A DNA stretch of 32,000 nt, from assembly GCA_038735125.1 (NCBI GenBank), contig JAVYNU010000007.1:60546-92545 (forward strand). The letters run 5' to 3'. Each line of letters opens with the position of its first letter. Position 1 is the stretch's first letter. This DNA comes from Ignisphaera sp. Its GTDB lineage: Archaea; Thermoproteota; Thermoprotei_A; Sulfolobales; Ignisphaeraceae. The translations under genes were made by a program, and so were the position numbers. Below, piece after piece: positions 12,846 through 24,723 of this stretch. Below the pieces are notes generated by a model. The model did no database searches. It was not told the DNA's origin and saw nothing but the letters and a program-made list of their open reading frames with translations.

Positions 12846-13682
12846 ATGAGCATAACCAACCTGAATTGGGTTGGAGATGCAATAGACAGGCTTAGAAGCA
12901 AGAAGCCTTTGGTTCACAACATCACTAATTTCGTTGTTATGAACACAACTGCTAATGCTCTCTTAGCTTTAGGTGCATCACCAATCATGTCCCACGGCAT
13001 CGAGGATCTAGATGATCTTGTGCCTGCTGCAGATGCTATTGTGATAAATATTGGTACTATTGATGAGGAATTCGCTTATTCCATGCTTAAAGCTATCCAG
13101 CTTGCAAAGATGTACAAAAAGCCTGTTGTTCTAGACCCTGTAGGGGCTGGCGCAACTAGGTTTAGAACCAGAATTGCTCTATCACTACTTGAAAACAGTG
13201 GTATAAGCGTTGTTAAGGGTAATTTTGGCGAGATTTTGGGTCTGTTGGGAGAGTATGGCAAGACTAGAGGTGTTGATGCAGCCTCATATGATAGGAGTAT
13301 TGCTTCTGAAGCTGTTTTGCAGACCTCGAAAAAATTCAGCTGTGTTGTTGGTTTGACAGGTTACACGGATTTTGTTAGCGATGGTGTCAATGTTTATGAG
13401 GTGAGGCTTAGGGTAGAGTCTCAAAACCTCGAAAAAGTGATTCACAGAGTCACAGGTTTGGGGTGTATTGTATCAGCTTTGATAGGAGCGTTTCTAGCAA
13501 TAGAAAATCCTTTGAAAGCTACTATAGCTGGGTTGGCCACATTCAAAGCTGTTTCCTACAAGGCCTCTGAAGAGACTCCCTATCCAGGCTCATTCCATGT
13601 CAAGCTATATGACTGGCTCTATAGAATTGATGGAGATATCGTTAGAGATGTTGTTGAGGTGAGAGAGGTTGGGTCTAACTGA
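12846..13682 (+). CDS. thiM: hydroxyethylthiazole kinase
   Basis: PLVHNITNFVVMNTTANALLALGASPIMSH and VKGNFGEI are ThiM hallmarks. I chose the ATG at 12846; the ORF-track extension from 12744 is hydrophobic junk. Confidence 0.9.
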   Translation: MSITNLNWVGDAIDRLRSKKPLVHNITNFVVMNTTANALLALGASPIMSHGIEDLDDLVPAADAIVINIGTIDEEFAYSMLKAIQLAKMYKKPVVLDPVGAGATRFRTRIALSLLENSGISVVKGNFGEILGLLGEYGKTRGVDAASYDRSIASEAVLQTSKKFSCVVGLTGYTDFVSDGVNVYEVRLRVESQNLEKVIHRVTGLGCIVSALIGAFLAIENPLKATIAGLATFKAVSYKASEETPYPGSFHVKLYDWLYRIDGDIVRDVVEVREVGSN

Positions 13683-14313
13683 GAAACTCAGACTTCTTGT
13701 TATAACAGATAAAAGGTTGAAGCCAAATGTTGTAAAATCTGTTGAAGAAGCATTGAAAGGTGGTGCAACATCTATTCAGCTTAGATTAAAAGAGTCGTCA
13801 ACACGTGAAATGGTGGAGATAGGTAGGGAGGTTAGGAGGCTAACTAGAGATTACGGAGCTCTATACTTTGTCGATGATAGGGTAGACGTTGCATTGGCCA
13901 CGAACGCTGATGGCGTTCAGCTAGGCCCTGAGGACATGCCTATTAGGATAGCCCGAGAAATAGCTCCAAACCTACTCATCGGGGCCTCTGTATATAGTGT
14001 TGAAGAGGCTTTAGAGGCCGAAAGAGAGGGTGCACACTTCTTAGGAGCTGGATCGGTGTACTCAACACCATCAAAACCAGATGCGAGAGTTATTGGATTA
14101 GAGGGTCTACGGAAAATAGTTGAGAGTGTGAGCATACCTGTTGTTGCCATAGGGGGTATAAACAAGGATAATGTTAGAGAGGTTCTTGAATCAGGTGTTG
14201 TGGGAGTAGCTGTTATATCGGCTGTTATGGCTGCTGAAGATGTTTATAGGGCCACCTTAGAACTTAGAAAAATTGTAGACGAGGTGCTAAGACCAAGTGG
14301 GCAAACTAGATGA
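13669..14313 (+). CDS. thiE: thiamine-phosphate synthase
   Basis: LLVITD, GATSIQLRLKE, ADGVQLGPEDMP, GASV, PVVAIGGI: the ThiE TIM-barrel motifs. Overlaps the thiM 3' end by 14 nt. Confidence 0.9.
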   Translation: MGLTEKLRLLVITDKRLKPNVVKSVEEALKGGATSIQLRLKESSTREMVEIGREVRRLTRDYGALYFVDDRVDVALATNADGVQLGPEDMPIRIAREIAPNLLIGASVYSVEEALEAEREGAHFLGAGSVYSTPSKPDARVIGLEGLRKIVESVSIPVVAIGGINKDNVREVLESGVVGVAVISAVMAAEDVYRATLELRKIVDEVLRPSGQTR

Positions 14314-15262
14314 AATCGTCAAGAAACTGGCTAGAGGGGCTAAGAGGCATCCTAGATCTCTCCTCACATGGTTTGATGATGCAGGGGCTGTAGAAATAAA
14401 TGGGAGATACTTTGTTGTGAAAGCCGATGGTTTTGCCTCTTCCAGGGCTCTCTATCCCTGGTGTAGCTATAGAGATTTTGGTTTTAGAGGTGTTGCGGGG
14501 GCTGTCAGCGATGTTATTGCCAAGGGGTGTAGACCATATGTATATGCCATCTCAATTGGTGTTAAGCCTGAAAACGTTGATTTTATAGAAGATATTATTA
14601 AGGGTGTTGAGGAAGCTGTCGACATATTTGGGGGCTATATAGAGAATATAGATACAAATATCGGTTACGACGACTGGATAGACGTTTTTGTCTTGGGGGA
14701 ATGCCTCTACTATCCTCTTCCAAGAGGGGCAAGGGAGCTAAGCAAGGTTATTTTGCCTAGGAGAGTAGGGCTATCTGTGATGGCATATATGGAGTATGTC
14801 GAGAAGAGAACACCTAGCATCGACGAGGTACGCAAATTCAGTTGTAGACCCATGCCATATACGCGGATAGTTGATGCAATAGAGTTTAGCAGAACAGGTT
14901 TAGAGGGCTCTATAGATATTAGCGACACATTTGCGGAGGCACTTCAGCAGCTAAGTGAAGTCAGTGGGACGGGTGTATACATACAGGAGAGCCCCTCTAG
15001 AATTTTGCACCCACTAGCAATTGAATACGTCAAGAGGGTGGGTTTAGACCTGCAACTAGCTGTTTTGGCGTCCAACGAAGAGTACATACCTCTCTTAATA
15101 GTGAAACCAGGATACGAAGAAGAGGTTCTAGATGTGTTGAAGAGCATAAGTTTAGAACCTGTGGTGATAGGCACCATAACATTGAAGCAAGACTTGATGT
15201 GGATGGGTAGGGTAATGCCAAAGGTGGTGTGGGACTATATCCAAGGTGCAGTAACCATATGA
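14297..15262 (+). CDS. thiL: thiamine-monophosphate kinase-like PurM-superfamily protein
   Basis: FDDAGAV, VVKADGF, VSDVIAKGCRP and FGGYIENIDTN match the AIR-synthase-related N-domain pattern. Overlaps thiE by 17 nt (GTG start). The function is assigned mainly from operon context. Confidence 0.6.
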   Translation: MGKLDEIVKKLARGAKRHPRSLLTWFDDAGAVEINGRYFVVKADGFASSRALYPWCSYRDFGFRGVAGAVSDVIAKGCRPYVYAISIGVKPENVDFIEDIIKGVEEAVDIFGGYIENIDTNIGYDDWIDVFVLGECLYYPLPRGARELSKVILPRRVGLSVMAYMEYVEKRTPSIDEVRKFSCRPMPYTRIVDAIEFSRTGLEGSIDISDTFAEALQQLSEVSGTGVYIQESPSRILHPLAIEYVKRVGLDLQLAVLASNEEYIPLLIVKPGYEEEVLDVLKSISLEPVVIGTITLKQDLMWMGRVMPKVVWDYIQGAVTI

Positions 15263-15339: not shown

Positions 15340-16368
15340 TCATTTGATGCTATCTATTATTTCTTTGTACAGCTTTAGAGCTTGGTCCGCGTCTGTTGTT
15401 CCCTTTACAAATACTTTTCCATTACGTAATATCATTACCTCGAAGCCGCTTACCACACCATAAGCCACAGCACCATCATATATCCTCAGATTCTTAATAA
15501 GATTGGATTTTGTCAGCTTTTCTAAATCTAGCTCTGCACGGCTTTCAGATACTATTTTAACTGCTCTTGCCCCACACATAGGCTTTACATTTTTGCCTCC
15601 TTTGAATAGGTAATCAAATCGCTTGTAAACACATGTAGGACAAGAACTATTTCTCCTTACATAAGCTCTTTCAATTGCTGCACTATATGCATCGACCACA
15701 TATAGGTGCTCATCCACATAACCCTCGGTCAAATATTTTATTGCGATAGATAGTGCCACTGATACTGTTAAATCTACAGCTATTGGCGTCACACCAAAAA
15801 TTTCACATGCATTTTCTCTCGCTCTAGCTCTTGGAATAAAGCACTTTAGACAAGCTGTTTTCTCTGGCACAACAAGCTTTACATTTCCATACCATCTCTC
15901 AACACCAATCATAACCCAGGGTTTGCCAAGATTCACACACGCTTCGTTTATCAGGTACCTAGTATCCATATTGTCAGTGCCATCTATAACGAGATCTACA
16001 TCTCTGATAAAATTCTGGATATTATCAGCATCAACATCATCTACAATAGCCTCAACCTCAACACCACTGTTAATCTCCTTTAAACGGTTTCTACATGCAA
16101 TAGCCTTGGGCACCCTCCCAAAAGCATCCTCTTCTCTAAACAGACGTGTTCTATGGAGATTGCTTACCTCAACAACATCCCTATCAACAACTCTGATAAA
16201 ACCGGCACCAGCCCTGGCAAGAACTTCAGCCACGCTACTGCCTGTAGCACCGCAGCCGATGATGGCTATTCTGGACTCGGCTAATTTAAGCTGCTTTTTG
16301 ATTCCTAGAACAAGTATCTGTCTCGAATATCTCTCAATAAAGTCTGCAACATCTATTCCCCTATTCAT
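15340..16368 (-). CDS. E1-like ThiF/MoeB/HesA-family adenylyltransferase with an extra C-terminal domain of about 90 aa
   Basis: YSRQILV, nucleotide loop IIGCGATGSSVAEVLARAG, DRDVVEVSNLHRTRLF, two CxxC pairs (CLKC, CPTC), and a conserved Cys in NACEIFGVTP. The C-terminal extension (…EVMILRNGKVFVKGTTDADQALKLYKEII) is not rhodanese-like. Confidence 0.85.
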   Translation of the reverse strand: MNRGIDVADFIERYSRQILVLGIKKQLKLAESRIAIIGCGATGSSVAEVLARAGAGFIRVVDRDVVEVSNLHRTRLFREEDAFGRVPKAIACRNRLKEINSGVEVEAIVDDVDADNIQNFIRDVDLVIDGTDNMDTRYLINEACVNLGKPWVMIGVERWYGNVKLVVPEKTACLKCFIPRARARENACEIFGVTPIAVDLTVSVALSIAIKYLTEGYVDEHLYVVDAYSAAIERAYVRRNSSCPTCVYKRFDYLFKGGKNVKPMCGARAVKIVSESRAELDLEKLTKSNLIKNLRIYDGAVAYGVVSGFEVMILRNGKVFVKGTTDADQALKLYKEIIDSIK

Positions 16369-16501
16369 ATCCGATCAACCCAAATAACTAAAATCGCATA
16401 TCATAGCCAAGCACCTCAAAATATAGATTAGGGAGTCATATTCAACGGAAATGCGGCTTTGATGTATAGACATAATGATCAGTGAAGCACAGTGAAATAT
16501 C

Positions 16502-16729
16502 TTAGAATTCCGCTGTTTTTCTAAGCCTTACTTCGTAGTACTTATCTTTTTCATTTACATCAATTGTTCCAATGCCAAATGCCTCAACAGATTCTCTAAT
16601 CATATCGACACAGAGCTTTGATGTTGTTAGCACAACTATTTCCTCTCCTCTGCGCACCTTGGAGAATTCTCTAATGGTCTTGACCAGTGGTTGCGGACAC
16701 TCTTCGCCTCTAAAGTCTAGCACCTTCAT
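16502..16729 (-). CDS. tusA: TusA/SirA-family sulfur-carrier protein
   Basis: 75 aa with LDFRGEECPQPLVK (the CPxP active-site motif). The ATG lies 4 nt after the stop of the upstream acylphosphatase-like gene. Confidence 0.85.
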   Translation of the reverse strand: MKVLDFRGEECPQPLVKTIREFSKVRRGEEIVVLTTSKLCVDMIRESVEAFGIGTIDVNEKDKYYEVRLRKTAEF

Positions 16730-16733
16730 TTGC

Positions 16734-17045
16734 TTAAAGCCCTTCCTCGCCAGCGCATTTAATGATCATGAAGTCCGTGTACAGCCCCTTATATTCGTGT
16801 TCTACCACATCAACTCGATTAATGGTGTATACCCTATTCTGGAGTACTCTGTCTATCAGTTCACGTATTTCACTGTCTATGCCTTCAACATATATCTCAA
16901 CACAGTCGCTATTAGGTATATTCATTATAAAACCTCTTAACCCAAGCATCTTTGCTATTCTCCAAATATATCTTCTAAACCCAACACCTTTAACTTCTCC
17001 ACAAATAGTAATTGAAGATGCTTTGAGCATCTCCCTCACCCTCAA
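16734..17045 (-). CDS. acylphosphatase-like domain protein
   Basis: ICGEVKGVGFRRYIWRIAKMLGLRGFIMNIPNSDCVEIYVEG matches the V-x-G-x-V-Q-G-V-G-F-R ... G-x-V-x-N signature. The catalytic Arg and Asn equivalents are both present. The TTG at 17045 overlaps the upstream stop; an alternative ATG lies at 17030. Confidence 0.75.
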   Translation of the reverse strand: MRVREMLKASSITICGEVKGVGFRRYIWRIAKMLGLRGFIMNIPNSDCVEIYVEGIDSEIRELIDRVLQNRVYTINRVDVVEHEYKGLYTDFMIIKCAGEEGL

Positions 17046-18451
17046 ACCAACTTAAATTGTGAAAGAATCTTTTTATCAGCAACAAACTTTTCCAGTGATT
17101 TCGGTGCTTCGACCTCCGGCTCACCCAAATCTACAACCTCGCCTATTACAGCTGGTTCTAGTCCCCGAGACTTCAGATCCCTAACTATATCCTCAGATAT
17201 TTCGCTAGGTGCGATAATTATGAAGGGCCCATTAGTTCCACTTGTAGCATTTGGAATCACATACAGCTTTGTTGCTATCTCCGATATCTCTGGGTATAGG
17301 AGAGGTACTGAGTATAGTCTTATCTTACTATTTGTTCTCTCTGCAAGCTCTTTAACAACAAAAATACCAGGTCCTGTGACGTCTGTTGTAACTGCTATGT
17401 GTTCATCTGGTTTGTATTCCTCTTTACTGGGTGGCAGATATTTGTACACAACCTCTGCAGCATGTATATTGGGTTTAGATATGAGTTCCACAACACTATC
17501 TTTTATTTTCTCTATATATTTCACATCTATGCCTTGTTTCTCTAGGTCTTTAACAAGGCTCTCATCTATTACACAGGATAGGTATAGGTTCAGTGGGGCT
17601 AGCTCTCCCATAGGCCTTGTTATGATGAGCTTCATACCCTTCTTGACCTTATCTTCAAATAGTGGCGGAGCTCTATCTGTGTAGCCAATAACAGTTGCTC
17701 CCATTAGTAGCCTCCCCTTCTTTGGCTGTATCACATCGATTATTTTGATGCCATATTGTTTTGAGTAAAGGTCTACATTCTTTAATAGCTTTCCTAAAAG
17801 TTCTTCTGTAGGAGCATTTACCACCGGTGCAATTCTTAGATCCTTGTACACACCTAAGACGAATATGTCGTTAAGTGCATTACTCAAAGCTCCGCTAACC
17901 TGCTTAAAGTCTCCAGGCTCTTGAGATGGATCTATAATATGAATTGTATCATTGTTAATAGCTGTAAAGCCCTCTAGTTTAGTTGATGGAGATATGAAAT
18001 CAAAAAGTGCAAACTCGTCTTCTGGAAACGGAGTTATAATTGAGTGTCCCTTTCCAACTACTATCTCTAAACCGCTTTTGGCAAGCCCTCTGTATACAGG
18101 CAAAACTCTGTTGATGAATCCCTCTGGAGAATCTGCATATCTCTGATACACTTGGACAACAGTAACAGAATAAAGCTTTTTATGTCTTTTCAAACTATTC
18201 TCCACATCGATATCAACTCCAAGAGGGTATATAGACCTATGAACCTCATCAGCACAGCCAGGCAAAACTAGGGCATCTTCTCTAGGTGCTATGAAAAACC
18301 TAGAGTTTTTAAGTTCATCCCTAATAGTCTTTAAGGCAGGGTAGACAACCCTTAGAAGATCAACCTTAACAGCACAGCCAGTTGCAAGCGCAAGCGGATT
18401 TAAGCCAAGTTTCTTATAATACTCAACTCTCTTGATAATCTCTTCAAACAT
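17042..18451 (-). CDS. SelD-like (selenophosphate-synthetase family, PurM superfamily) protein with internal expansion
   Basis: By-eye alignment to E. coli SelD gives these matches:
- N-terminal loop ATGCAVKV versus GAGCGCKI (Cys and Lys conserved).
- EDALV versus DDAAV.
- NALNDIFVLG versus NAISDIFAMG.
- KLIITRPMG versus KLFLTKPLG.
- TTDVTGPGI versus MTDVTGFGL.
- AVIGEVV versus TAIGELV.
I chose the ATG at 18451 because TAGGTGGCTTATG places a GGTG Shine-Dalgarno-like element 5-8 nt upstream. The ORF-track TTG is at 18478. Confidence 0.7.
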   Translation of the reverse strand: MFEEIIKRVEYYKKLGLNPLALATGCAVKVDLLRVVYPALKTIRDELKNSRFFIAPREDALVLPGCADEVHRSIYPLGVDIDVENSLKRHKKLYSVTVVQVYQRYADSPEGFINRVLPVYRGLAKSGLEIVVGKGHSIITPFPEDEFALFDFISPSTKLEGFTAINNDTIHIIDPSQEPGDFKQVSGALSNALNDIFVLGVYKDLRIAPVVNAPTEELLGKLLKNVDLYSKQYGIKIIDVIQPKKGRLLMGATVIGYTDRAPPLFEDKVKKGMKLIITRPMGELAPLNLYLSCVIDESLVKDLEKQGIDVKYIEKIKDSVVELISKPNIHAAEVVYKYLPPSKEEYKPDEHIAVTTDVTGPGIFVVKELAERTNSKIRLYSVPLLYPEISEIATKLYVIPNATSGTNGPFIIIAPSEISEDIVRDLKSRGLEPAVIGEVVDLGEPEVEAPKSLEKFVADKKILSQFKLV

Positions 18452-18458
18452 AAGCCAC

Positions 18459-18710
18459 CTACCTCTTCTTCTTAACAACTATTCTCCAAACACCTCTATC
18501 GATATTCTCAACACCTAGTACCTCATGACCATCGGCTTCAACAGCTTTTGGCACGTTCTCACAAGATGGCGGATTATCAGTTATAACCTCTAAGACATCG
18601 CCGGGATTGATCTGTGAAAGAGCTTTTCTAGTATATATGACTGGATATGGACATACAAACCCTCTGACATCAAGTACATACTTATTGTCGCCAATCTTTG
18701 CAAATCTCAA
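18459..18710 (-). CDS. tusA: TusA/SirA-family sulfur-carrier protein
   Basis: 83 aa with LDVRGFVCPYPVIYTRKAL (CPxP motif). TTG start. The stop lies 7 nt before the ATG of the SelD-like gene. Confidence 0.85.
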   Translation of the reverse strand: MRFAKIGDNKYVLDVRGFVCPYPVIYTRKALSQINPGDVLEVITDNPPSCENVPKAVEADGHEVLGVENIDRGVWRIVVKKKR

Positions 18711-18721
18711 TGTAAAAACAC

Positions 18722-18738
18722 CTATAACAATGTTATAG
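18722..18738. promoter_or_regulatory. perfect 17-bp palindrome CTATAACA-A-TGTTATAG, candidate operator overlapping the tusA promoter
   Basis: Read directly from the sequence. It lies 12-28 nt upstream of the tusA TTG start at 18710, where a TATA/BRE element of a leaderless or short-leader archaeal transcript would sit. Confidence 0.45.
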
Positions 18739-18838
18739 ATGTATGAATATATAAGTATTGCGAATTTGAATGCATAAAAAGTTGGATGGATTGTGTTAAA
18801 AGCAATATTCTTAATTTACATTAACAATCCTTATTATA

Positions 18839-18853
18839 TTAACAGTGTTATAG
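18839..18853. promoter_or_regulatory. second copy of the palindromic motif (TTAACAGTGTTATAG) upstream of yeeE
   Basis: 13 of 15 positions are identical to the 18724-18738 part of the first site. It lies 9-23 nt upstream of the ATG at 18862. Confidence 0.4.
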
Positions 18854-18861
18854 GTGATATA

Positions 18862-20109
18862 ATGGTCGATCACACTATAAATGACAGGGCAAATACTAAA
18901 GACGTTATCAGCTTTAAGAAGTATTTGGAGAGCAACTATTTTAGAAAGGTTTTCGGATCAGATGGATGGCCTATTGTGGTAGCAGGTATTTTAATAGGTT
19001 TAATAAATGTTGTATCATATGTATGGGTTAAGAAGCCTTTTACTGTGTATACAGGGTTTCTAAACTGGGGGCAGCACATATATAGCTTACTAGGCTTGAG
19101 CAGTCTAGCGGATACGCCTAAGACCTCGCCTCTTCTAGACCCTACAAGTGCTGGCGATATAGGGGCTATTTTAGGTGCTATGATAGCTGCTATACTATCT
19201 AATGAATTCCGTTTACGGGGGGTAGATAGACTAGGAGTTATTGAGAGTATTGTTGGGGGTGTTTTAATGGCTCTGGGAGTTTCAATGTCGTTTGGATGCA
19301 ACTGGGGAGGCTTTTTATCTGCTATAACATCTTGGAGTCTACATGGATATGCATTCCTATTAGGAGCCTTAGCAGGTGGCTATCTAGGACAAAGATATGT
19401 GCTGTGGAGAGCTGAGAAAACATTTAGACTAGAATCAAAAGTTGATCTCTCGATAGGCTCCGGCTATGAGAGAAAGCGTGAAGCTGGCCAATATGGCGTA
19501 TTGTTGGTTATACCACTAACAATAATAATTTTAGCATCTATTTACTACGCCTATATGAAAAGCTATATGATTGGTGGATTACTAATAGGCGTAACCATGG
19601 GCATGATACTACAGAGAGCAAGATTCTGCTTTGCAACAGCATTTAGGGATTTGTTTGGTGGCCCAGAGGCTCTAAGGGCAATCAACATTCATAAGGGAAT
19701 TGCTGTAGCAATGCTTGTAGGGGCTACGGGTGTTTTTGCACTAAAATACATGGGTTTGGCTGATATATGGATACTTGTCTCACCTGTTTATATAACTAAT
19801 GTGATTGGAGGAGCCATATTTATATTTGGAGCTATTATGGTTGGTGGTTGTGCATCGGGAATTCTATGGCGTATAGGCGAAGGCCATTTGAAAGCACTGA
19901 TAGGATTGATATCAACAGTTTTAGCATATCCAATGTTTGTCAATATTATTAGCAAGCGCTTAGTTACATACCCAAGAATCTTTATGCCAGGTGCGGTTGG
20001 CTGGATTGCTGCATATGCAATATTCATAATATTCATATCTATATATCTAATGCTTCTTCTCTATCAAGAGTATAGACTGCAGAGAGAAAGGGGCTTGTCA
20101 CAACGCTAA
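18862..20109 (+). CDS. yeeE: YeeE/YedE-family (TsuA-like) sulfur/selenium-compound transporter
   Basis: Polytopic membrane protein with the family's conserved Cys motifs (SFGCNWGG, RARFCFATAFRD, VGGCASGILWR). I chose the ATG at 18862, preceded by AGGTGA. The ORF track starts at 18793. Confidence 0.85.
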   Translation: MVDHTINDRANTKDVISFKKYLESNYFRKVFGSDGWPIVVAGILIGLINVVSYVWVKKPFTVYTGFLNWGQHIYSLLGLSSLADTPKTSPLLDPTSAGDIGAILGAMIAAILSNEFRLRGVDRLGVIESIVGGVLMALGVSMSFGCNWGGFLSAITSWSLHGYAFLLGALAGGYLGQRYVLWRAEKTFRLESKVDLSIGSGYERKREAGQYGVLLVIPLTIIILASIYYAYMKSYMIGGLLIGVTMGMILQRARFCFATAFRDLFGGPEALRAINIHKGIAVAMLVGATGVFALKYMGLADIWILVSPVYITNVIGGAIFIFGAIMVGGCASGILWRIGEGHLKALIGLISTVLAYPMFVNIISKRLVTYPRIFMPGAVGWIAAYAIFIIFISIYLMLLLYQEYRLQRERGLSQR

Positions 20110-20860: not shown

Positions 20861-21043
20861 CTATACAATGCTTTGGGTACATATATACAGATCTTTTATC
20901 GGTCTATATACGGTTGGTATGCTTAGTCCATAGTATACATGCCTAGTTGTTTTAGGTGGGTACACACTCTTTCTGATATGCGCCATTTCTATGATGCTAC
21001 GTTTTGATGTGTGTATATCCTTTCTAAGTGAATATACATCCAC
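20861..21043 (-). pseudogene. displaced C-terminal portion of the ParB-like gene (out of frame because of the 13-bp duplication)
   Basis: This 60-codon ORF joins in frame with 21024-21380 if one copy of the 13-bp tandem repeat is removed. It has no convincing start or ribosome-binding site of its own. Confidence 0.5.
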
Positions 21044-21380
21044 ATAGTTTTGTAGATAATTTTTGTAGATAATCTACAAGAAATGTTGCTGCACATTTCA
21101 CACCAATTTTCTTAAGGGCTTCTACTCTGTGGTGCCCATCAAGAATAGTTAGAGTCCTTACATCGACTATTATCGGGTACTTCAAATATCGACTAACTTT
21201 CATCTCTTTTGCAATAAGCTCAACTAAATCGCTATAAACATCTTCATGTGGTCTAAGCATTTCTATGGGTATGTCGTATACCCTTAAACTATCTTTGTAT
21301 GGATTAAAATGAGATAGTTTATCTTTGCCAAAGGCTCTGATTAGAAAGGGCAATGTGTCTATATCTAAATCCATTGGCAT
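21024..21380 (-). CDS. ParB/sulfiredoxin-like domain protein, apparently truncated (possibly related to archaeal free-serine kinase SerK)
   Basis: IPIEMLRPHEDV and TILDGHHRVEALKKIG are ParB-like nuclease-domain motifs. It lies 13 nt downstream of the cysteine-synthase-like gene. Its last 12 codons are created by the tandem duplication. Confidence 0.65.
   Translation of the reverse strand: MPMDLDIDTLPFLIRAFGKDKLSHFNPYKDSLRVYDIPIEMLRPHEDVYSDLVELIAKEMKVSRYLKYPIIVDVRTLTILDGHHRVEALKKIGVKCAATFLVDYLQKLSTKLCGCIFT
21048..21073. repeat. perfect 13-bp tandem duplication TTTTGTAGATAAT x2
   Basis: Read directly from the sequence: 21048-21060 equals 21061-21073. The second copy also forms a palindrome with the following sequence (TTGTAGAT-A-ATCTACAA, 21064-21080). 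Confidence 0.95.
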
Positions 21381-21393
21381 GGCCTTCCCAAGA

Positions 21394-22578
21394 CTAGCTT
21401 ATATATCTAGATAACTGCTCTACATACTTAAAGCCGTGGTCTGGGAATATGAGGATGTAGTCACCTTCATCAAGAGCCCCCCTTTCTACAAGTTTTCTAT
21501 AGGCCATGTATACAGCCCCACTACTCAGCCCTATCAATATTCCATCTCTTCTAGCAACTTCTATAACGCCCTTGGCAGCCTCGTCAGGTTTAATATCTAT
21601 TACACCATCTATTTCCACATGGTGTACCCACTTCATACCGCTTTCAATTCTTCTAATGCCTTGGATGGCAGTCCCCTCTGCAGGTACAACACCATAGACC
21701 TTAACCCCGCTGAATCTGTTTTTGAAGTATAGGGCTATGGCTGACATGTGTCCAGATGTGCCTAAGCCCCCTATTATGGCCTTGGGCTTTATCCCAGCCT
21801 CTCTTATTTGAATCTCAAGCTCTTTAGCTGTATACCTTAAGTGAACCTCGAAGTTTGCATCGTTGTAAAACTGGTTTAGGTGTATAGCACCCTCAGTTTT
21901 TGCGACAGCCTCGACTTCGTCTATGAGATCTACTGTCAACGGTTTTGGTGATCTAACAACTTCTGCACCAAAGATTTTTAGAAGAAGTTCTCCCGTTAGA
22001 GAAACTGTTGAGGGTATATATGCTCTAAGCTTAGAGTTGTGGATATTAGACATAGCAGCTATAGCAAGCCCTGTATTTGTTGATGTGGACTCCACCAAAA
22101 GACCTAGCTGAAAACTGCCAAGTCTCTCAGCAGCCTTTCTATACATATACCATCCAATCCTATCCTTAACACTCATACTCCAAGGGTTAAAGCCTTCCAG
22201 CTTAGCCCACACAATCCTGCCGTCAACGGAAGATCTTGGCAACCTTACCAAAGGTGTTGGCCAATTTCTATACAAAAGCTCTTCAGTATCAGCAAAAACT
22301 CTGTACCTACTCGGATTAATTTCATCGAAAAAGCCCAGCCTTTCAAGAGGGACAAACGTGTTTTCTGCAGAGCCACGTGATACAGATATGTATTTAACCC
22401 CCAGTTTCTTTAAAGCAGCGCATAGCTTAGCATTTTCAACAACCCTTCCACTATCTACATCAATGGCTACTGTTTTGTCGACACCACCCTTTCTAAGAAT
22501 CTCGCTTACAATAGCTATAAACTCTTCGAGCTCTAGTCTATCGCTGCAAACCACTTTACCAATATCTTCTAGATACAC
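21394..22578 (-). CDS. cysteine synthase family PLP enzyme, long archaeal O-phosphoserine sulfhydrylase-like form with an extra N-terminal domain
   Basis: PLP-lysine motif NPWSMSVKDRIG, TSTNTG, GLGTSGHMSA and GLSSGA identify the fold-type II Trp-synthase-beta family. At 394 aa it carries a roughly 90-aa N-terminal extension. GTG start. Confidence 0.85.
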   Translation of the reverse strand: MYLEDIGKVVCSDRLELEEFIAIVSEILRKGGVDKTVAIDVDSGRVVENAKLCAALKKLGVKYISVSRGSAENTFVPLERLGFFDEINPSRYRVFADTEELLYRNWPTPLVRLPRSSVDGRIVWAKLEGFNPWSMSVKDRIGWYMYRKAAERLGSFQLGLLVESTSTNTGLAIAAMSNIHNSKLRAYIPSTVSLTGELLLKIFGAEVVRSPKPLTVDLIDEVEAVAKTEGAIHLNQFYNDANFEVHLRYTAKELEIQIREAGIKPKAIIGGLGTSGHMSAIALYFKNRFSGVKVYGVVPAEGTAIQGIRRIESGMKWVHHVEIDGVIDIKPDEAAKGVIEVARRDGILIGLSSGAVYMAYRKLVERGALDEGDYILIFPDHGFKYVEQLSRYIS

Positions 22579-22715: not shown

Positions 22716-23252
22716 ATGTTATTGGTGTTTAGATTGAGTAGCAGAATACCCTTGCCATATAGCCCAAAAGTGCTAGAAATATTCAGAAATCCGAGAAATC
22801 TTGGGCCACTAGAAGATGCTAATGTTGTTGAAATGGCTGGTAGCCCTGCATGCGGAGATATGATAAGGCTCTATCTAAAAATTGTTCATAGAGATGATGG
22901 TGACTATATCGAGAAGGCCTCTTTTGAAAGCTATGGATGTGCAGCAAACATCGCTGCTGCTAGTATTTTAACTGAAATGATTATAGGGAAAAAGGTTGAG
23001 GATGCTTGGAAAATATCGTGGAAGCAAATATCTGATGAGCTCGGAGGCCTTCCACCAATAAAATATCACTGCAGCATTCTTGCTGTAGGCGCTTTGAAAA
23101 GAGGTATAAGAGCTTACTATAAACAGCTTGGCTATAACCCACCGTGGCTTCCAAAGGATTTGACTGCTGAGGAGAGGCAGGTTTTAGAGGAAGAGGAGAT
23201 GATGGAGAGATACTATAAAGCGATGAAGGCCTTGAGCGGTGAAAGCCGATGA
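22716..23252 (+). CDS. iscU: IscU/NifU-like Fe-S cluster scaffold
   Basis: YSPKVLEIFRNPRNLG, then the three ligand cysteines in GSPACGDMI, SYGCAANIAAAS and KYHCSILA. It has a C-terminal extension of about 45 aa. The start could instead be one of the downstream TTG/GTG codons (22722-22734). Confidence 0.9.
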   Translation: MLLVFRLSSRIPLPYSPKVLEIFRNPRNLGPLEDANVVEMAGSPACGDMIRLYLKIVHRDDGDYIEKASFESYGCAANIAAASILTEMIIGKKVEDAWKISWKQISDELGGLPPIKYHCSILAVGALKRGIRAYYKQLGYNPPWLPKDLTAEERQVLEEEEMMERYYKAMKALSGESR

Positions 23253-23497
23253 GAGAAATCGATTTGAGATACATCCCAACATCATGCACATCGCATCCAG
23301 TTATAGTCTTAGCCAACACCCTTAAGGATCTGGAGAGAGAAGGTGTTGAAAAATTCAAACTCATTTTCAATGTTGATGACATTCCTGTAAACGCCATAAA
23401 GTTCTTTCTGTCTAAACATGGCTATTGTGTTGAAGAGGAGAGTCCTTTAGACAATAGATCAATGTCTGTTCTAGCCAGTAGATGTGGGAAGAGATGA
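23249..23497 (+). CDS. divergent TusA-like small protein (CPxP replaced by C-T-S-H-P)
   Basis: 82 aa. IDLRYIPTSCTSHPVIVLANTLKDL parallels LDxRGxxCPxPxxxxxxAL of TusA. It has ATGA overlaps with both iscU (23249-23252) and iscS (23494-23497). Confidence 0.5.
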   Translation: MREIDLRYIPTSCTSHPVIVLANTLKDLEREGVEKFKLIFNVDDIPVNAIKFFLSKHGYCVEEESPLDNRSMSVLASRCGKR

Positions 23498-24723
23498 TGT
23501 CTATAGCTCAAAAAGTTAGAGAGCTCTTGAAGTCCCATGGAAGCCCCTCTAAAGAGGTCTACTTTGATTTGGAGAACAGTGGTTTTGTGCCGCAAGAAGT
23601 TGTTGAGGCTATGATACCATATTTTAATAGAATTGGCTATGGACATCCATCAATAACACACAAACCTGGTTGGGAAGCTCTTGAGGTTGTATATGAAGCT
23701 AAGGAGTTGTTGGCCAAGACTATAGGCGCTTCAGATCCAGACGAGATAGTATTTACACATAGCGGTACAGAGGCAAATAACTTAGCCATACTGGGCTATC
23801 TTCTGAAGAATAGGGGTAGAAAGGGTAAGGTTGTTGTATCTGCAATTGAGCATCTAAGCGTTATATTTCCAGCTCAATTCGCTTCAGAGCTATTTGGATT
23901 CAAAACAGTTTTAGTGCCTGTAGACAGCGAGGGCTTTGTTGATCCAGAGCTATTCAAATTGTATGTAGATAAGGAGACTGTTTTTGTCAGTATTCAAATG
24001 GTTAATCATGAGATTGGAACTATACAAAGACTGAAAGAGCTAATCGATATAGCGAAAAGTGTCAACCCCGATATTGTTTTCCACACAGATGCCGCTGATG
24101 CCTATGGGTGGATACCAATAGACGTTAATAAACTTGGGGTGGATATGCTTACAATCAGTAGCCACAAGATTCATGGACCTAGAGGAGTAGGAGCATTGTA
24201 CATTAGAAAAGGAGTAGAGGTTGAGTCCCCTATAAAAGGTCAGCTAAGTGTTGAGAAGAACTGGCCTGGCGTTGAAAATGTTCCGCTTATAGCAGGTTTT
24301 AAGAAAGCCGTTGAGATAATGTTTAGCAACTTCAATTATAGAGTTGAATATGTTAAAAAACTTAGAGACAAGCTTATAAAGGGAATAATATCGTCTGTAC
24401 CCCATACAATAGTCAACGGACCTATAAACGAGTATAGAGTTGCTAACAACGCCAACATAAGCTTTCTGTACATAGAGGGAGAAGCTCTAACAGTTGAGCT
24501 AAGCCTACGCGGAGTCTATGTATCTAGCGGAAGTGCATGTTCAAGTAGAGTCTTAGAGCCAAGTCACGTTCTACTAGCTATTGGAAGAAAGCATGAGGAG
24601 GCACACGGGAGTATACTGTTCAAGGTATCACACTACCACAGAGAAGAGGATGTAGATTACGCATTAGAGGTCATACCAAAAGCTGTTGAAAGACTTAGAA
24701 AAATGAGTGCATGGAAACAGTAA
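23494..24723 (+). CDS. iscS: cysteine desulfurase (class V aminotransferase, NifS/IscS-like)
   Basis: FTHSGTEANN, HTDAADA, the PLP lysine in SSHKIHGPRG, and the active-site loop SSGSACSS. I chose the start at 23494 (ATGA overlap); the ORF track gives 23482. Confidence 0.9.
   Translation: MMSIAQKVRELLKSHGSPSKEVYFDLENSGFVPQEVVEAMIPYFNRIGYGHPSITHKPGWEALEVVYEAKELLAKTIGASDPDEIVFTHSGTEANNLAILGYLLKNRGRKGKVVVSAIEHLSVIFPAQFASELFGFKTVLVPVDSEGFVDPELFKLYVDKETVFVSIQMVNHEIGTIQRLKELIDIAKSVNPDIVFHTDAADAYGWIPIDVNKLGVDMLTISSHKIHGPRGVGALYIRKGVEVESPIKGQLSVEKNWPGVENVPLIAGFKKAVEIMFSNFNYRVEYVKKLRDKLIKGIISSVPHTIVNGPINEYRVANNANISFLYIEGEALTVELSLRGVYVSSGSACSSRVLEPSHVLLAIGRKHEEAHGSILFKVSHYHREEDVDYALEVIPKAVERLRKMSAWKQ

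What the first reader, a model, noticed from the sequence alone, without database searches (positions are those of the whole stretch)
15340..20109. Compact tusA - selD-like - acylphosphatase-like - tusA (- E1-like) operon divergent from yeeE/yedE: candidate undescribed chalcogen activation/trafficking module
**Seen in the sequence:**
- Five minus-strand genes are packed almost without spacers.
- The tusA stop at 18459 lies 7 nt from the selD-like ATG at 18451, with GGTG in between.
- The selD-like stop overlaps the acylphosphatase-like TTG at 17045.
- The acylphosphatase-like stop lies 4 nt from the second tusA ATG at 16729.
- An E1-like ThiF/MoeB gene follows 133 nt further downstream.
- A YeeE/YedE transporter is transcribed divergently, 151 nt away.

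**Established knowledge:**
- YeeE/YeeD (TsuA/TsuB) import thiosulfate, with a TusA-like partner.
- In bacteria, yedE and the SirA-like yedF have been reported to co-occur with selD as selenium-utilisation markers.
- TusA proteins carry persulfide sulfur.

**What is not a pathway I know:** the combination of a SelD-family enzyme with a dedicated acylphosphatase-fold partner, two TusA carriers and an E1-like adenylyltransferase, in an archaeal context with no Sec or selenouridine genes visible in 32 kb.

**Hypothesis (inference):** the transporter brings in a sulfur or selenium compound, TusA carries the persulfide or perselenide, and the SelD-like enzyme makes ATP-dependent thio- or selenophosphate. 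The acylphosphatase-fold protein then handles or proofreads that product, which feeds an E1-dependent thio- or seleno-carboxylation or a tRNA/cofactor modification.
Basis: partly seen in the sequence, partly recalled or inferred. Interest (0 to 1): 0.85.

Follow-up and report, generated by a model that had tools for sequence, protein, structure and literature searches.

The report
Known archaeal SelD-like sulfur gene cluster
This is a real, tightly packed gene cluster for handling sulfur in a hot-spring archaeon, but its core (a relative of the selenium-activating enzyme SelD with an acylphosphatase-like partner and TusA sulfur carriers) was described by computer analysis in 2014 and still has no tested function.

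Summary
All six genes exist at the stated coordinates with the stated spacings. Profile searches confirm two TusA proteins, an acylphosphatase fold, a ThiF-type E1 and a YeeE/YedE transporter.

The 469-aa protein is a full-length member of NCBIfam NF038049, "SelD-related putative sulfur metabolism protein" (612 bits, cutoff 250). It is not a true SelD. NCBI already names the identical protein, from an Ignisphaera MAG.

The claim "undescribed" fails. Li et al. 2014 (PMC4210487) described this family, its acylphosphatase fusion or partnership, its SirA/TusA neighbours and the thiophosphate hypothesis. A 2026 review still calls the function speculative.

Across 80 species-level loci:
- TusA lies within 500 nt in 64.
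- The acylphosphatase is adjacent or fused in 43.
- YeeE lies within 4 kb in 28.
- A tandem rhodanese occurs in about 24.
- The E1 occurs in only 3, so it is an accessory and not a required endpoint.

Three points are not in the text of the 2014 paper. YeeE is linked to the module. The family extends beyond Sulfolobales and Thermoproteales. Phosphoserine-dependent cysteine-forming enzymes recur nearby: CysO-type OPSS here and in Acidilobaceae, and SepCysS in one Hydrothermarchaeales operon.

Best guess: ATP-dependent activation of TusA-delivered sulfur. Interest is moderate to low.

The parts
18862..20109 (+). YeeE/YedE-family membrane transporter. The mechanical ORF starts at GTG 18793; the likely start is ATG 18862.
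   Evidence: - Pfam Sulf_transp 2.5e-39.
- Below the cutoffs of both YedE/FdhT (122 vs 350 bits) and TsuA (93.5 vs 400; 76.3 vs 645).
- Of its three cysteines (FGCNWG, RFCFAT, GGCASG), the latter two are invariant and the first is present wherever aligned (17 of 23 sequences).
- Lies next to TusA and the SelD-like gene in 20 of 80 loci within 600 nt, and in 28 of 80 within 4 kb.
18711..18861 (.). 151-nt divergent intergenic region between YeeE and the TusA1 operon. It presumably holds both promoters.
   Evidence: Read directly from the sequence. The divergent arrangement is conserved in Ignisphaera-clade loci L001-L005 and L081-L083. Promoter function is inferred, not tested.
18459..18710 (-). 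TusA1, a single-domain TusA/SirA sulfur carrier with the CP cysteine motif (RGFVCPYP).
   Evidence: - Pfam TusA 5.5e-25.
- Best NCBIfam match is YedF (66.2 bits, cutoff 79), ahead of TusA (41.3) and YeeD/TsuB (38.8).
- A TusA1-type gene lies directly upstream of the SelD-like gene (gap -34 to +7 nt) in about 35 of 80 loci.
17042..18451 (-). SelD-related putative sulfur metabolism protein (SelD-like; NF038049), 469 aa.
   Evidence: - NF038049 scores 612 bits (cutoff 250), full length. The SelD models score only 44.8 and 30.8 bits, below their cutoffs.
- The AF2 model has pLDDT 91.3, and its best PDB folds are SelD structures.
- C26, K29, D59, D151, D168, N191, D195 and D357 are invariant or nearly so (99-100%) in 120 sequences, and C26 is the only conserved Cys.
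- A conserved insert of about 95 aa (roughly residues 65-160) carries GKGHSI.
16734..17030 (-). Acylphosphatase-like partner protein, 98 aa from ATG 17030.
   Evidence: - Pfam Acylphosphatase 6.3e-17. All NCBIfam acylphosphatase equivalogs fall below cutoff.
- The GxVxGVGFR phosphate cradle and the catalytic-position Asn are conserved at >= 90% in 45 partner sequences.
- Adjacent or fused to the SelD-like gene in 43 of 80 loci. Fused in Vulcanisaeta and Caldivirga.
16502..16729 (-). TusA2, a second TusA-type carrier (RGEECPQP).
   Evidence: - Pfam TusA 1.7e-16.
- A TusA2-type gene follows the acylphosphatase in many Acidilobaceae and Sulfolobales-MAG loci.
- In Ignisphaera relatives L003-L005, the TusA2-type gene instead sits at the 3' end of IscS.
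15340..16368 (-). ThiF/MoeB-type E1-like adenylyltransferase with a C-terminal extension of about 90 aa. It is a lineage-specific accessory neighbour.
   Evidence: - Pfam ThiF 1.4e-60. The best NCBIfam match, PRK12475, covers the full length at 226 bits (cutoff 510).
- Present in the operon in the 87% relatives, displaced and inverted in the 78% relative, and within 4.5 kb in 3 of 80 species loci.
- Convergent with the ThiM-ThiE-ThiL genes at 12744-15262.
21024..22578 (-). Context: a CysO-type O-phosphoserine sulfhydrylase (21394-22578), followed by a 118-aa ORF with a weak SerK/ParB-like match (21024-21380).
   Evidence: - Matches A. pernix CysO (PDB 1wkv) at 249 bits, 7.6e-73.
- The same N-extended PALP lies next to the SelD-like gene (divergent in 10, co-directional in 1) in 11 Acidilobaceae, Caldisphaera and Hestiella loci.
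- The small ORF scores 30 bits on SerK (cutoff 380).
22716..24723 (+). Context: an IscU-like protein (NifU_N, 22716-23252) and a class-V aminotransferase / cysteine desulfurase-like protein (23482-24723).
   Evidence: Pfam NifU_N 1.8e-38 and Aminotran_5 7.5e-63. In L003-L005 this pair is followed directly by a TusA2-type gene.

Best explanation
**What it is**
The locus is an Ignisphaera copy of the already described archaeal SelD-like sulfur module. Its conserved core is TusA1 - SelD-like (NF038049) - acylphosphatase-like - TusA2. Here a divergent YeeE/YedE transporter serves it.

**Most likely mechanism (inferred, not shown)**
1. YeeE imports a sulfur oxyanion such as thiosulfate.
2. TusA1, acting like YeeD/YedF, takes the sulfane sulfur on its CP-motif cysteine.
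3. TusA1 passes that sulfur to the single invariant cysteine (C26) in the flexible N-terminal loop of the SelD-like enzyme.
4. The enzyme uses its SelD-type ATP and metal site to phosphorylate the sulfur. The product would be thiophosphate or an enzyme-bound P-S intermediate.
5. The acylphosphatase-like protein supplies a phosphate-binding or hydrolytic site that acts on that product or on a phosphorylated downstream adduct.
6. TusA2 links the module to the cysteine-desulfurase (IscS) and E1 sulfur relay.

**Role of the E1**
The ThiF-type E1 is a lineage-specific neighbour and not a core step.

**Likely destination**
The activated sulfur most likely goes to biosynthesis. The recurrence of phosphoserine-dependent cysteine-forming enzymes nearby points to cysteine synthesis.

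**Confidence by layer**
- Identity of the genes and family: about 0.95.
- The sulfur-activation mechanism: about 0.4.
For: **Family membership**
- NF038049 scores 612 bits against a cutoff of 250.
- The identical NCBI protein already carries that name.

**SelD-like chemistry is plausible**
- The best PDB sequence match is SPS1 at 4e-7; the next, a ribosomal protein (uL18), is at 0.42 and HypE at 0.47.
- The best folds are E. coli, human and Aquifex SelD.
- Counterparts of the CxxK motif, the Asp residues and the Asn are invariant or nearly so (99-100%) in 120 sequences.
- The loop carrying C26 is the only segment of the model with pLDDT below 50, consistent with a mobile loop.

**Sulfur context across 80 species-level loci**
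- TusA within 500 nt in 64.
- Acylphosphatase adjacent or fused in 43.
- YeeE within 4 kb in 28.
- Tandem rhodanese in about 24.

**Partner proteins look functional**
- The acylphosphatase partners keep the GxVxGVxFR cradle and the Asn.
- Most TusA copies keep the cysteine motif: 89 of 99 have GxxCPxP, 7 more have CP, and 3 lack it.

**Prior independent statement of the hypothesis**
Li et al. 2014 proposed the same idea.

**Link to cysteine synthesis**
- A CysO-type OPSS lies in the window and next to the SelD-like gene in 11 other loci.
- SepCysS sits in the L055 operon.
- SepSecS accepts thiophosphate in vitro, and the in vivo sulfur donor of SepCysS was unknown as of a 2008 review (PMC2330236).
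Against: - No experiment on any family member turned up in the held literature. A 2026 review still calls the role speculative.
- Thiophosphate is not an established natural metabolite (my own knowledge).
- Thiophosphate is not an acyl phosphate, so the acylphosphatase role is unexplained.
- The acylphosphatase is missing next to the gene in Thaumarchaeota and Sulfolobaceae.
- The conserved 95-aa insert with invariant K134, H136, S137, Q100 and Q103 has no SelD counterpart. It could mean a different substrate.
- The OPSS link rests on two clades, and the SepCysS link on a single locus that did not recur in 38 further metagenome loci.
- Li et al. report no SelD-like gene in the Desulfurococcales sequenced then. 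To my knowledge these include A. pernix, whose characterised OPSS would therefore work without it.
Confidence: 0.45

Rival explanations
1. The module handles selenium, not sulfur. YeeE acts as a YedE-like selenium importer, TusA1 as a YedF-like carrier, and the SelD-like enzyme makes selenophosphate for a selenium use not yet recognised in these archaea.
For: - The transporter scores higher on the YedE/FdhT selenium model (122 bits) than on the TsuA models (93.5 and 76.3).
- TusA1 scores higher on YedF (66.2) than on TusA (41.3) or YeeD (38.8).
- The YedE/YedF/SelD association in bacteria is an exact architectural parallel.
- All SelD catalytic residues are retained.
Against: - All those scores are below the curated cutoffs.
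- Li et al. found no known selenium-use trait in any SelD-like-bearing crenarchaeon.
- No selenium genes, tRNA-Sec or SECIS-type RNA occur in the window.
- The partners are general sulfur proteins: rhodanese, IscS, OPSS and SepCysS.
- Position 26 is Cys in all 120 sequences.
Confidence: 0.1
2. The enzyme does PurM/HypE-type chemistry instead of making free thiophosphate. It uses ATP to phosphorylate a carbonyl or carboxyl oxygen, giving an acyl- or imidoyl-phosphate. The TusA persulfide then attacks to give a thiocarboxylate or thio-compound. The acylphosphatase fold binds or supplies the acyl phosphate, as the N-terminal domain of HypF does with carbamoyl phosphate.
For: - HypE and ThiL folds score almost as well as SelD (3e-13 and 7e-13 against 1.6e-15).
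- The acylphosphatase-like protein also matches the HypF N-terminal domain (44 bits).
- The conserved partner with an acyl-phosphate-binding cradle is easier to explain if an acyl phosphate exists.
- Model 1 of Li et al. 2014 is of this type.
Against: - The CxxK loop and the SelD-specific Asn/Asp constellation are kept. Li et al. report that these are absent from the other PurM-superfamily families.
- There is no HypE-like C-terminal cysteine; C26 is the only conserved Cys.
- No candidate acyl substrate or carrier is encoded in the conserved core.
Confidence: 0.15
3. One reading: transporter, then TusA, then SelD-like enzyme, then acylphosphatase proofreading, with the product obligatorily feeding the E1-like adenylyltransferase for thio- or seleno-carboxylation or a tRNA or cofactor modification.
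For: - TusA2 and the E1 are adjacent and co-directional here and in the 87% relatives, where the gap is only 39 nt.
- E1-TusA pairs recur beside the module in L006 and L055, and an E1 follows YeeE in L005.
Against: - The E1 is present in only 3 of 80 species loci.
- It is inverted and separated by FTR1 and DUF411 genes in the 78% relative.
- No GG-ending Ubl carrier lies nearby.
- TusA2-type genes travel with IscS in L003-L005. That fits an ordinary IscS-TusA-E1 relay which does not need the SelD-like enzyme.
- The E1 sits at the boundary with thiamine genes.
Confidence: 0.1
4. The module serves dissimilatory or protective sulfur metabolism, not biosynthesis. Examples would be energy-linked turnover of thiosulfate or sulfane sulfur (possibly run towards ATP formation) or detoxification of reactive sulfur species.
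For: - Li et al. found co-occurrence with AprAB and proximity to DSR genes in Thermoproteales.
- YeeE is strongly induced on sulfur in sulfur-oxidising Sulfolobaceae.
- An FCSD-like flavoprotein lies beside the module in L049.
Against: - The window's neighbours are biosynthetic: OPSS, IscU/IscS and thiamine genes.
- The family also occurs in Thaumarchaeota MAGs, a lineage not known, to my knowledge, for dissimilatory sulfur metabolism.
- Single-copy TusA-scale carriers suit trafficking more than bulk flux (inference).
Confidence: 0.08

Closest known systems
SelD-like family of Li et al. 2014 (BMC Genomics 15:908), equal to NCBIfam NF038049 'SelD_rel_HyperS'
   Same: - Full-length match far above the cutoff.
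- Same CxxK, Asp and Asn residues.
- Same acylphosphatase-like partner, which is fused in Thermoproteales.
- Same SirA/TusA neighbours.
- Same thiophosphate hypothesis.
   Different: - The host is Ignisphaera, and the paper stated that Desulfurococcales lack the gene.
- The YeeE/YedE transporter, the ThiF-type E1 and cysteine synthase are not mentioned in the paper's text.
- No Prx-like (COG2210) gene was seen in this window.
- The family now also appears in genome bins labelled Thaumarchaeota, Hydrothermarchaeales, Methanobacteriota, Halobacteria and one Acidobacteriota.
Selenophosphate synthetase SelD/SPS (TIGR00476; PDB 3u0o, 2zod, 3fd5)
   Same: - PurM-superfamily two-domain fold.
- Flexible N-terminal loop with Cys-x-x-Lys.
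- Counterparts of D51, D68, N87, D91 and D227.
- Best sequence and fold match.
   Different: - About 15-18% identity, and scores far below the SelD cutoffs.
- A conserved insert of about 95 aa between the first two Asp-bearing strands.
- The canonical GGHS motif is missing at its usual place, and a GKGHS motif lies in the insert.
- No selenium-use genes accompany it.
YedE-YedF-SelD selenium gene association, and the YeeE(TsuA)-YeeD(TsuB) thiosulfate uptake pair in bacteria
   Same: The same three-part logic applies: a YeeE/YedE-family channel, a TusA-fold partner and, in the selenium case, a SelD-type enzyme. The transporter cysteines are conserved.
   Different: - The transporter and TusA1 reach none of the curated cutoffs for YedE/FdhT, TsuA, YedF or YeeD. 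They form a separate branch.
- TusA1 lacks the C-terminal domain of the long form of YedF.
HypE-HypF (a PurM-family ATPase plus an acylphosphatase domain) in [NiFe]-hydrogenase maturation
   Same: It pairs a PurM-superfamily ATP-dependent enzyme with an acylphosphatase-fold module, and a mobile cysteine-bearing terminus serves as the reaction site.
   Different: - HypE uses a C-terminal cysteine and HypF carries additional Zn-finger, YrdC and Kae1 domains (both from my own knowledge); neither was found here.
- No hydrogenase genes were seen among the window ORFs scanned.
IscS-TusA sulfur relay and E1 (MoeB/ThiF/UbaA)-dependent carrier thiocarboxylation
   Same: TusA2-type genes abut IscS in close relatives, and TusA2 is paired with a ThiF-type E1 here and in L006 and L055.
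   Different: - The E1 reaches no equivalog cutoff.
- It has an unassigned C-terminal extension of about 90 aa.
- No Ubl carrier is nearby.
- Coupling to the SelD-like enzyme is not shown.

Membership tests
NCBIfam NF038049 SelD_rel_HyperS (SelD-related putative sulfur metabolism protein) | Whole-protein score at or above the curated cutoff, with full-length coverage | tested here: met
   612 bits against a cutoff of 250. Residues 13-476 of the 478-aa ORF match profile positions 2-464 of 465.
SelD-like family (Li et al. 2014) | Conserved Cys-x-x-Lys at the N-terminus plus counterparts of the SelD Asp and Asn residues | tested here: met
   C26, K29, D59, D151, D168, N191, D195 and D357 are invariant or nearly so (99-100%) in 120 sequences. 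The published alignment marks the same positions.
SelD-like family (Li et al. 2014) | Acylphosphatase-like domain fused or adjacent, with SirA/TusA neighbours | tested here: met
   The acylphosphatase gene starts 11 nt after the SelD-like stop, and TusA genes flank both sides. The pattern holds in 43 and 64 of 80 loci.
Selenophosphate synthetase SelD (TIGR00476 / PRK14105) | Score at or above the curated cutoff | tested here: not met
   30.8 bits against 125, and 44.8 against 291. Only residues from about 186 onwards align.
Selenophosphate synthetase SelD | Sec/Cys-x-x-Lys loop and metal/ATP-binding Asp residues | tested here: met
   Alignment to E. coli SelD pairs C17/K20 with C26/K29, D51 with D59, D68 with D168 (or D151), N87/D91 with N191/D195, and D227 with D357.
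Selenophosphate synthetase SelD | Co-occurrence with a selenium-use trait (SelA/SelB, PSTK/SepSecS, YbbB/SelU, YqeB/YqeC) | tested here: inconclusive
   None occurs in the 32-kb window. The whole genome is not available here. Li et al. report none in SelD-like-bearing Crenarchaeota.
Selenophosphate synthetase SelD | Catalysis: ATP + selenide gives AMP + selenophosphate + Pi | not testable with these tools
   Needs enzymology.
Acylphosphatase (Pfam PF00708) | Pfam gathering score, plus the phosphate cradle VxGxVQGVxFR and the catalytic Asn | tested here: met
   62.1 bits against 22.5. GEVKGVGFR and MN are present, and the motif is >= 90% conserved among 45 partners.
Housekeeping acylphosphatase (NCBIfam equivalogs PRK144xx) | Score at or above the equivalog cutoff | tested here: not met
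   The best score is 54.7 bits against a cutoff of 103.
TusA/SirA (Pfam PF01206) | Gathering score and the conserved Cys in the CP motif | tested here: met
   87.4 and 60.3 bits against 28.6. The motifs are VCPYP and ECPQP.
YeeD/TsuB (NF041048) and YedF (NF008242, TIGR03527) | Score at or above the curated cutoff | tested here: not met
   TusA1 scores 38.8 against 147.5 on YeeD, and 66.2 against 79 and 48 against 110 on YedF. TusA2 scores lower.
YeeE/YedE (Pfam PF04143 Sulf_transp) | Gathering score and conserved cysteines | tested here: met
   136.1 bits against 27. Of its three cysteines, two are invariant and one is present wherever aligned (17 of 23 sequences).
TsuA thiosulfate transporter (NF041049 / NF052577) and YedE/FdhT (NF033796) | Score at or above the curated cutoff | tested here: not met
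   76.3 against 645, 93.5 against 400, and 122 against 350.
ThiF/MoeB/UbaA E1-like adenylyltransferases | ThiF domain; equivalog-level assignment | tested here: inconclusive
   Pfam ThiF 204.9 bits is met. No NCBIfam equivalog or subfamily cutoff is reached: PRK12475 226 against 510, adenyl_thiF 197.5 against 275, UbaA 123.6 against 450.
CysO-type O-phosphoserine sulfhydrylase (context gene 21394-22578) | Close similarity to the characterised A. pernix enzyme, including most of its N-terminal extension | tested here: met
   PDB 1wkv at 249 bits, 7.6e-73, aligning residues 55-388 to 49-377 of 389. Ordinary CysK/CysM structures score about 110 bits. Substrate specificity was not tested.

The most novel reading that the evidence does not exclude
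The YeeE - TusA - SelD-like - acylphosphatase module could be a sulfur mirror image of the selenocysteine pathway. It would turn imported thiosulfate-derived sulfane sulfur into thiophosphate, a metabolite never shown to be made biologically. It would then hand that sulfur to PLP enzymes that replace the phosphate of O-phosphoserine: CysO-type OPSS in Ignisphaera and Acidilobaceae, and SepCysS on tRNA in Hydrothermarchaeales. The acylphosphatase fold would remove the phosphate from the S-phospho adduct. If so, this would identify the long-sought physiological sulfur donor for phosphoserine-dependent cysteine formation in some archaea.
Probability: 0.15. Interest if true: 0.8.

Novelty: new member of a known kind. 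Interest (0 to 1): 0.33.

Why it matters
If the SelD-like enzyme really makes thiophosphate or another P-S compound, it would be the first biological thiophosphate synthetase. It would also explain how some archaea deliver sulfur without free sulfide.

The idea and the gene family have been in the literature since 2014, so this window does not reveal a new system.

Its practical value is twofold. First, it offers a compact, complete gene set for biochemical reconstitution: transporter, two carriers, enzyme and phosphatase-fold partner. Second, the wider survey here narrows the hypotheses:
- YeeE or rhodanese acts as the sulfur entry point.
- The E1 is dispensable.
- Cysteine-forming phosphoserine enzymes recur nearby.

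Tried and rejected
- **Pfam on the SelD-like protein:** no hit at E <= 0.01. NCBIfam settled the family.
- **hhalign in global mode against E. coli SelD:** failed. Local mode gave a usable but low-probability alignment (53.6%, E 1.3e-4), and the placement of D68 is ambiguous between D151 and D168.
- **Internal-duplication test for the 95-aa insert:** the insert (residues 88-158) aligns end to end with E. coli SelD 99-161, but only at E 0.006-0.035. It does not align with the protein's own unit at 199-262 (E 0.13). This is suggestive only and is not claimed.
- **Search for a ThiS/MoaD/SAMP-like carrier ending in GG near the E1:** none found.
- **Search for close relatives of the L055 SelD-like gene in metagenomes, to see whether the SepCysS link recurs:** the first scan found nothing. 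A profile scan gave 38 loci, none with SepCysS.
- **Literature searches for experimental work on the family, on thiophosphate, or on a link to YeeE or Sulfolobus:** nothing beyond the 2014 paper and reviews citing it.
- **N-terminal extension of the OPSS-like protein, the 118-aa ORF and the E1 C-terminal extension:** no convincing Pfam assignment.
- **Idea that the E1 belongs to the thiamine cluster as ThiF:** considered but neither confirmed nor excluded. It is convergent with ThiL here and in the 87% relatives, but scores below the ThiF equivalog cutoff.

Full report
**1. Observation**

Reading the minus strand confirms the junctions:
- TusA1 ends at TAG (18461-18459). Seven bases (GTGGCTT) separate it from the SelD-like ATG at 18451.
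- The SelD-like TGA (17044-17042) overlaps a TTG at 17045.
- The acylphosphatase-like TAA (16736-16734) lies 4 nt before the TusA2 ATG at 16729.
- The E1 ATG at 16368 lies 133 nt beyond the TusA2 stop.
- YeeE runs divergently, 151 nt away if it starts at ATG 18862.

Two small corrections apply. First, the acylphosphatase-like gene probably starts at ATG 17030, behind GGTGAGGGAG, because the 87%-identical relative has a 98-aa call starting 10 nt after the SelD-like stop. Second, NCBI calls the SelD-like protein from TTG 18478, giving 478 aa.

**2. Identities**

Pfam results:
- ThiF: 1.4e-60.
- TusA: 5.5e-25 and 1.7e-16.
- Acylphosphatase: 6.3e-17.
- Sulf_transp: 2.5e-39.
- The SelD-like protein has no hit.

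NCBIfam places the SelD-like protein, full length, in NF038049 'SelD-related putative sulfur metabolism protein' at 612 bits (cutoff 250). The true SelD models reach only 44.8 bits (cutoff 291) and 30.8 bits (cutoff 125), over the C-terminal two thirds.

The other proteins are not members of any characterised equivalog:
- The transporter misses YedE/FdhT (122 vs 350) and TsuA (93.5 vs 400; 76.3 vs 645).
- TusA1 misses YedF (66.2 vs 79) and YeeD (38.8 vs 147.5).
- The E1 misses every ThiF, MoeB and UbaA cutoff.

A database search finds the identical protein in an Ignisphaera sp. MAG, already named 'SelD-related putative sulfur metabolism protein'.

**3. Prior description**

Li et al. 2014 (BMC Genomics 15:908; PMC4210487) described this 'SelD-like' family in Sulfolobales and Thermoproteales. 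They reported:
- the conserved Cys-x-x-Lys, Asp and Asn residues;
- its separate branch next to SelD;
- its fusion to an acylphosphatase-like domain in Thermoproteales;
- SirA-like (TusA), Prx-like and rhodanese neighbours;
- the absence of any known selenium trait in these organisms.

They proposed that the enzyme makes a thiophosphate compound, with two models for the acylphosphatase. Reviews from 2022 and 2026 still call the role speculative. My searches found no experimental study. The paper's text does not mention YeeE/YedE, ThiF/MoeB or cysteine synthase, and it states that Desulfurococcales lack the gene.

**4. The enzyme**

An AlphaFold2 model built from a 20-sequence alignment is confident (pLDDT 91.3, pTM 0.91). 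The only segment below pLDDT 50 is residues 23-27, the loop carrying C26.

Foldseek ranks the SelD structures first: 3u0o at 1.6e-15, then 3fd5 and 2zod. HypE (3e-13) and ThiL (7e-13) follow closely. About 320 of 469 residues align. A profile search of PDB sequences gives SPS1 at 4e-7; the next match, a ribosomal protein (uL18), is at 0.42 and HypE at 0.47.

In 120 family sequences, C26 is invariant and is the only conserved cysteine. K29, D31, D59, D168, D174, N191, N194, D195, D357 and the GTNG motif at 405-408 are invariant, and D151 is 99% conserved.

Against E. coli SelD, taken from NC_000913, the residues pair as follows:
- C17/K20 with C26/K29.
- D51 with D59.
- N87/D91 with N191/D195.
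- D227 with D357.
- D68 with either D168 or D151. My contiguous alignment of TTDFFMPIVDNP with NNDTIHIIDP favours D168. Li et al.'s figure favours D151. Both are at least 99% conserved.

Between D59 and D168 lies a conserved insert of about 95 aa, with invariant Q100, K134 and H136 and near-invariant Q103 and S137 (99%). SelD has no counterpart. The insert resembles the beta-alpha-beta-beta unit of SelD that carries GGHS, but only weakly (E 0.006-0.035). I report it as an unexplained feature.

The family is small: 191 representatives at 50% clustering, out of 1.84 billion proteins, reach E <= 1e-3.

**5. Gene-order conservation**

I fetched 80 species-level loci and annotated them with HMMs built from the window's proteins.

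| Neighbour of the SelD-like gene | Loci out of 80 |
|---|---|
| TusA within 500 nt | 64 |
| Acylphosphatase adjacent or fused | 43 |
| YeeE within 600 nt | 20 |
| YeeE within 4 kb | 28 |
| Tandem rhodanese | about 24 |
| N-extended PALP within 1 kb | 11 |
| E1 within 4.5 kb | 3 |

Many contigs are truncated, so these counts are lower bounds.

The architectures differ by lineage:
- Ignisphaera: YeeE< TusA1> SelD-like> AcyP>.
- Bins labelled Pyrodictiaceae, Desulfurococcales and Aeropyrum: YeeE> TusA1> SelD-like> AcyP>.
- Acidilobaceae and Caldisphaera: OPSS< SelD-like> AcyP> TusA2>.
- Sulfolobales MAGs: TusA1> SelD-like> AcyP> TusA2>.
- Thaumarchaeota MAGs: TusA< YeeE< ... SelD-like> TusA> TusA> rhodanese>, with no acylphosphatase.
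- Vulcanisaeta and Caldivirga: the fused form.
- Cultured Sulfolobaceae: the gene mostly alone.

The acylphosphatase partners keep the GxVxGVxFR cradle and the Asn, and most TusA copies keep the cysteine motif (89 of 99 have GxxCPxP, 7 more have CP, 3 lack it). Thirty-eight further metagenome loci show the same TusA, rhodanese and acylphosphatase partners.

The family therefore reaches well beyond the 'hyperthermophilic sulfur reducers' of the 2014 paper. It appears in bins labelled Thaumarchaeota/Nitrososphaerales, Hydrothermarchaeales, Methanobacteriota and Halobacteria, and on one 406-kb Acidobacteriota contig. MAG labels should be treated with caution.

**6. The E1 and TusA2**

- In the 87%-identical relatives, the whole order is kept, including TusA2-E1 (39-nt gap) and the convergent ThiL-ThiE-ThiM genes.
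- In a 78% relative, FTR1 and DUF411 genes separate TusA2 from an inverted E1.
- In Ignisphaera relatives at 64-68%, the TusA2-type gene sits at the 3' end of IscS (NifU> IscS> TusA2>).
- In L005, the E1 follows YeeE.
- In L006, an E1-TusA2 pair lies convergent, about 0.8 kb after the acylphosphatase.
- In L055, the order is SelD-like> AcyP> TusA> E1> TusA>.
- No GG-ending Ubl carrier is encoded nearby.

I read TusA2 and the E1 as parts of an ordinary IscS-TusA-E1 type relay. That relay tends to co-localise with the module in a few lineages but is not a required step. The window also carries IscU- and IscS-like genes at 22716-24723.

**7. A recurring neighbour worth noting**

The PALP gene at 21394-22578 matches the characterised A. 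pernix O-phosphoserine sulfhydrylase CysO (PDB 1wkv; 249 bits, against about 110 for ordinary CysK/CysM). A 118-aa ORF with a weak SerK-like match follows it.

The same N-extended PALP lies next to the SelD-like gene in 11 Acidilobaceae, Caldisphaera and Hestiella loci (divergent in 10, co-directional in one). In the Hydrothermarchaeales locus L055, the operon continues through DUF169 into a bona fide SepCysS (TIGR02539, 374.9 bits against a cutoff of 365.25).

Both enzymes replace the phosphate of O-phosphoserine with sulfur to make cysteine. SepSecS accepts thiophosphate in vitro, and the in vivo donor for SepCysS was unknown as of a 2008 review (PMC2330236).

This supports a link to cysteine synthesis but remains thin, for three reasons:
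- It rests on two clades plus one singleton that did not recur.
- Li et al. report no SelD-like gene in the Desulfurococcales sequenced then. To my knowledge these include A. pernix, so its OPSS would work without it.
- Li et al. found no SepRS or SepCysS in SelD-like-bearing Crenarchaeota.

**8. Mechanism**

What is shown:
- family membership;
- retention of the SelD-type ATP/metal and Cys-Lys residues;
- a conserved sulfur-trafficking context of TusA, YeeE or rhodanese, and IscS.

What is inferred:
1. YeeE imports thiosulfate or a similar species.
2. TusA1 carries sulfane sulfur to C26.
3. ATP-dependent phosphorylation yields thiophosphate or a bound P-S intermediate.
4. The acylphosphatase fold handles a phosphorylated product.
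5. The sulfur goes to biosynthesis, possibly cysteine.

I put this mechanism at about 0.4. The rivals are:
- a hidden selenium pathway (about 0.1);
- PurM/HypE-type acyl-phosphate chemistry leading to a thio-compound (about 0.15);
- a dissimilatory or protective role (about 0.08).

**9. Rest of the window**

No selenium genes, tRNAs or Rfam RNAs were found. The other genes are:
- thiamine salvage genes (ThiM, ThiE, ThiL);
- a copper P-type ATPase;
- an oxidative-stress cluster;
- PIN toxins;
- housekeeping genes.

**10. Verdict**

This is a real, conserved, correctly read locus. It belongs to a family and gene cluster described in 2014 and encoded in NCBIfam, and the identical protein is already annotated. 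It is a new member in a lineage once thought to lack the family. It adds a newly visible YeeE link and a tentative cysteine-synthesis link. The function remains an open biochemical question. Interest is moderate to low for discovery and somewhat higher as a defined target for enzymology.

Noticed in passing
window 21024-22578 (-): A CysO-type O-phosphoserine sulfhydrylase (best PDB match A. pernix 1wkv, 249 bits) is followed 13 nt later by a 118-aa ORF. That ORF has a DGHHR ParB/Srx-like motif and a weak SerK match (30 bits, cutoff 380). This may be a phosphoserine-to-cysteine pair sitting 1.3 kb from YeeE.
   Followed up: partly
L055 7986-13235 (+), Hydrothermarchaeales MAG: An operon-like run: SelD-like > acylphosphatase > TusA > MoeB/UbaA-like E1 > TusA > DUF169 > SepCysS (above the TIGR02539 cutoff). 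It is the only SepCysS link found, and it did not recur in 38 further metagenome loci.
   Followed up: yes
window 17042-18451 (-), protein residues ~65-160: A conserved insert of about 95 aa lies between the first two Asp-bearing strands of the SelD-like enzyme, with invariant or near-invariant (>= 99%) GKGHSI, Q100 and Q103. It aligns end to end with E. coli SelD 99-161 (the GGHSI unit), but only at E 0.006-0.035. This may be an internal duplication. The canonical position has lost the GGHS motif.
   Followed up: partly
L003 5057-5308, L004 4150-4410, L005 605-847: In Ignisphaera relatives, the TusA2-type gene overlaps the 3' end of the IscS-like cysteine desulfurase gene (NifU > IscS > TusA2) and does not follow the acylphosphatase gene. 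This suggests that TusA2 is an IscS persulfide acceptor.
   Followed up: partly
L040, L045-L049, L056-L071, L079 and others (for example L060 9915-10718): A 267-aa tandem-rhodanese protein (3-mercaptopyruvate/thiosulfate sulfurtransferase-like) lies next to the SelD-like gene in about 24 of 80 loci, mostly where YeeE is not adjacent. It looks like an alternative sulfur entry point.
   Followed up: partly
L049 (406-kb contig of an Acidobacteriota MAG) and L047, L056-L071 (Thaumarchaeota/Nitrososphaerales MAGs): The family occurs outside hyperthermophilic Crenarchaeota, including one apparently bacterial contig that carries rhodanese, TusA, an acylphosphatase and an FCSD-like flavoprotein nearby. 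MAG labels were not verified.
   Followed up: no
window 12744-15262 (+): ThiM (hydroxyethylthiazole kinase), ThiE (TMP synthase) and a ThiL-like AIRS protein form a thiamine salvage cluster convergent with the E1 gene. The E1 might belong functionally to either neighbour.
   Followed up: partly
window 3609-9629: An oxidative-stress cluster: a ferritin/rubrerythrin-like protein, DUF1122, a thioredoxin-reductase-like flavoprotein, rubrerythrin, SfsA, hemerythrin and a flavodiiron-type (ODP + flavodoxin) protein.
   Followed up: no
window 1313-1729 (-), 2542-2991 (+): Two PIN-domain proteins (likely VapC-type toxins). A retropepsin-like aspartyl protease ORF lies at 3177-3548.
   Followed up: no
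P0250 (library protein, 1864 aa): A very long protein matches profile positions 124-190 of the SelD-like family (the GKGHSI hairpin to the NNDT strand) in 8 separate stretches. Its meaning is unknown.
   Followed up: no
L070 and L109: A second, shorter SelD-like paralogue lies about 3 kb from the main copy on the opposite strand in two Sulfolobaceae-type loci.
   Followed up: no
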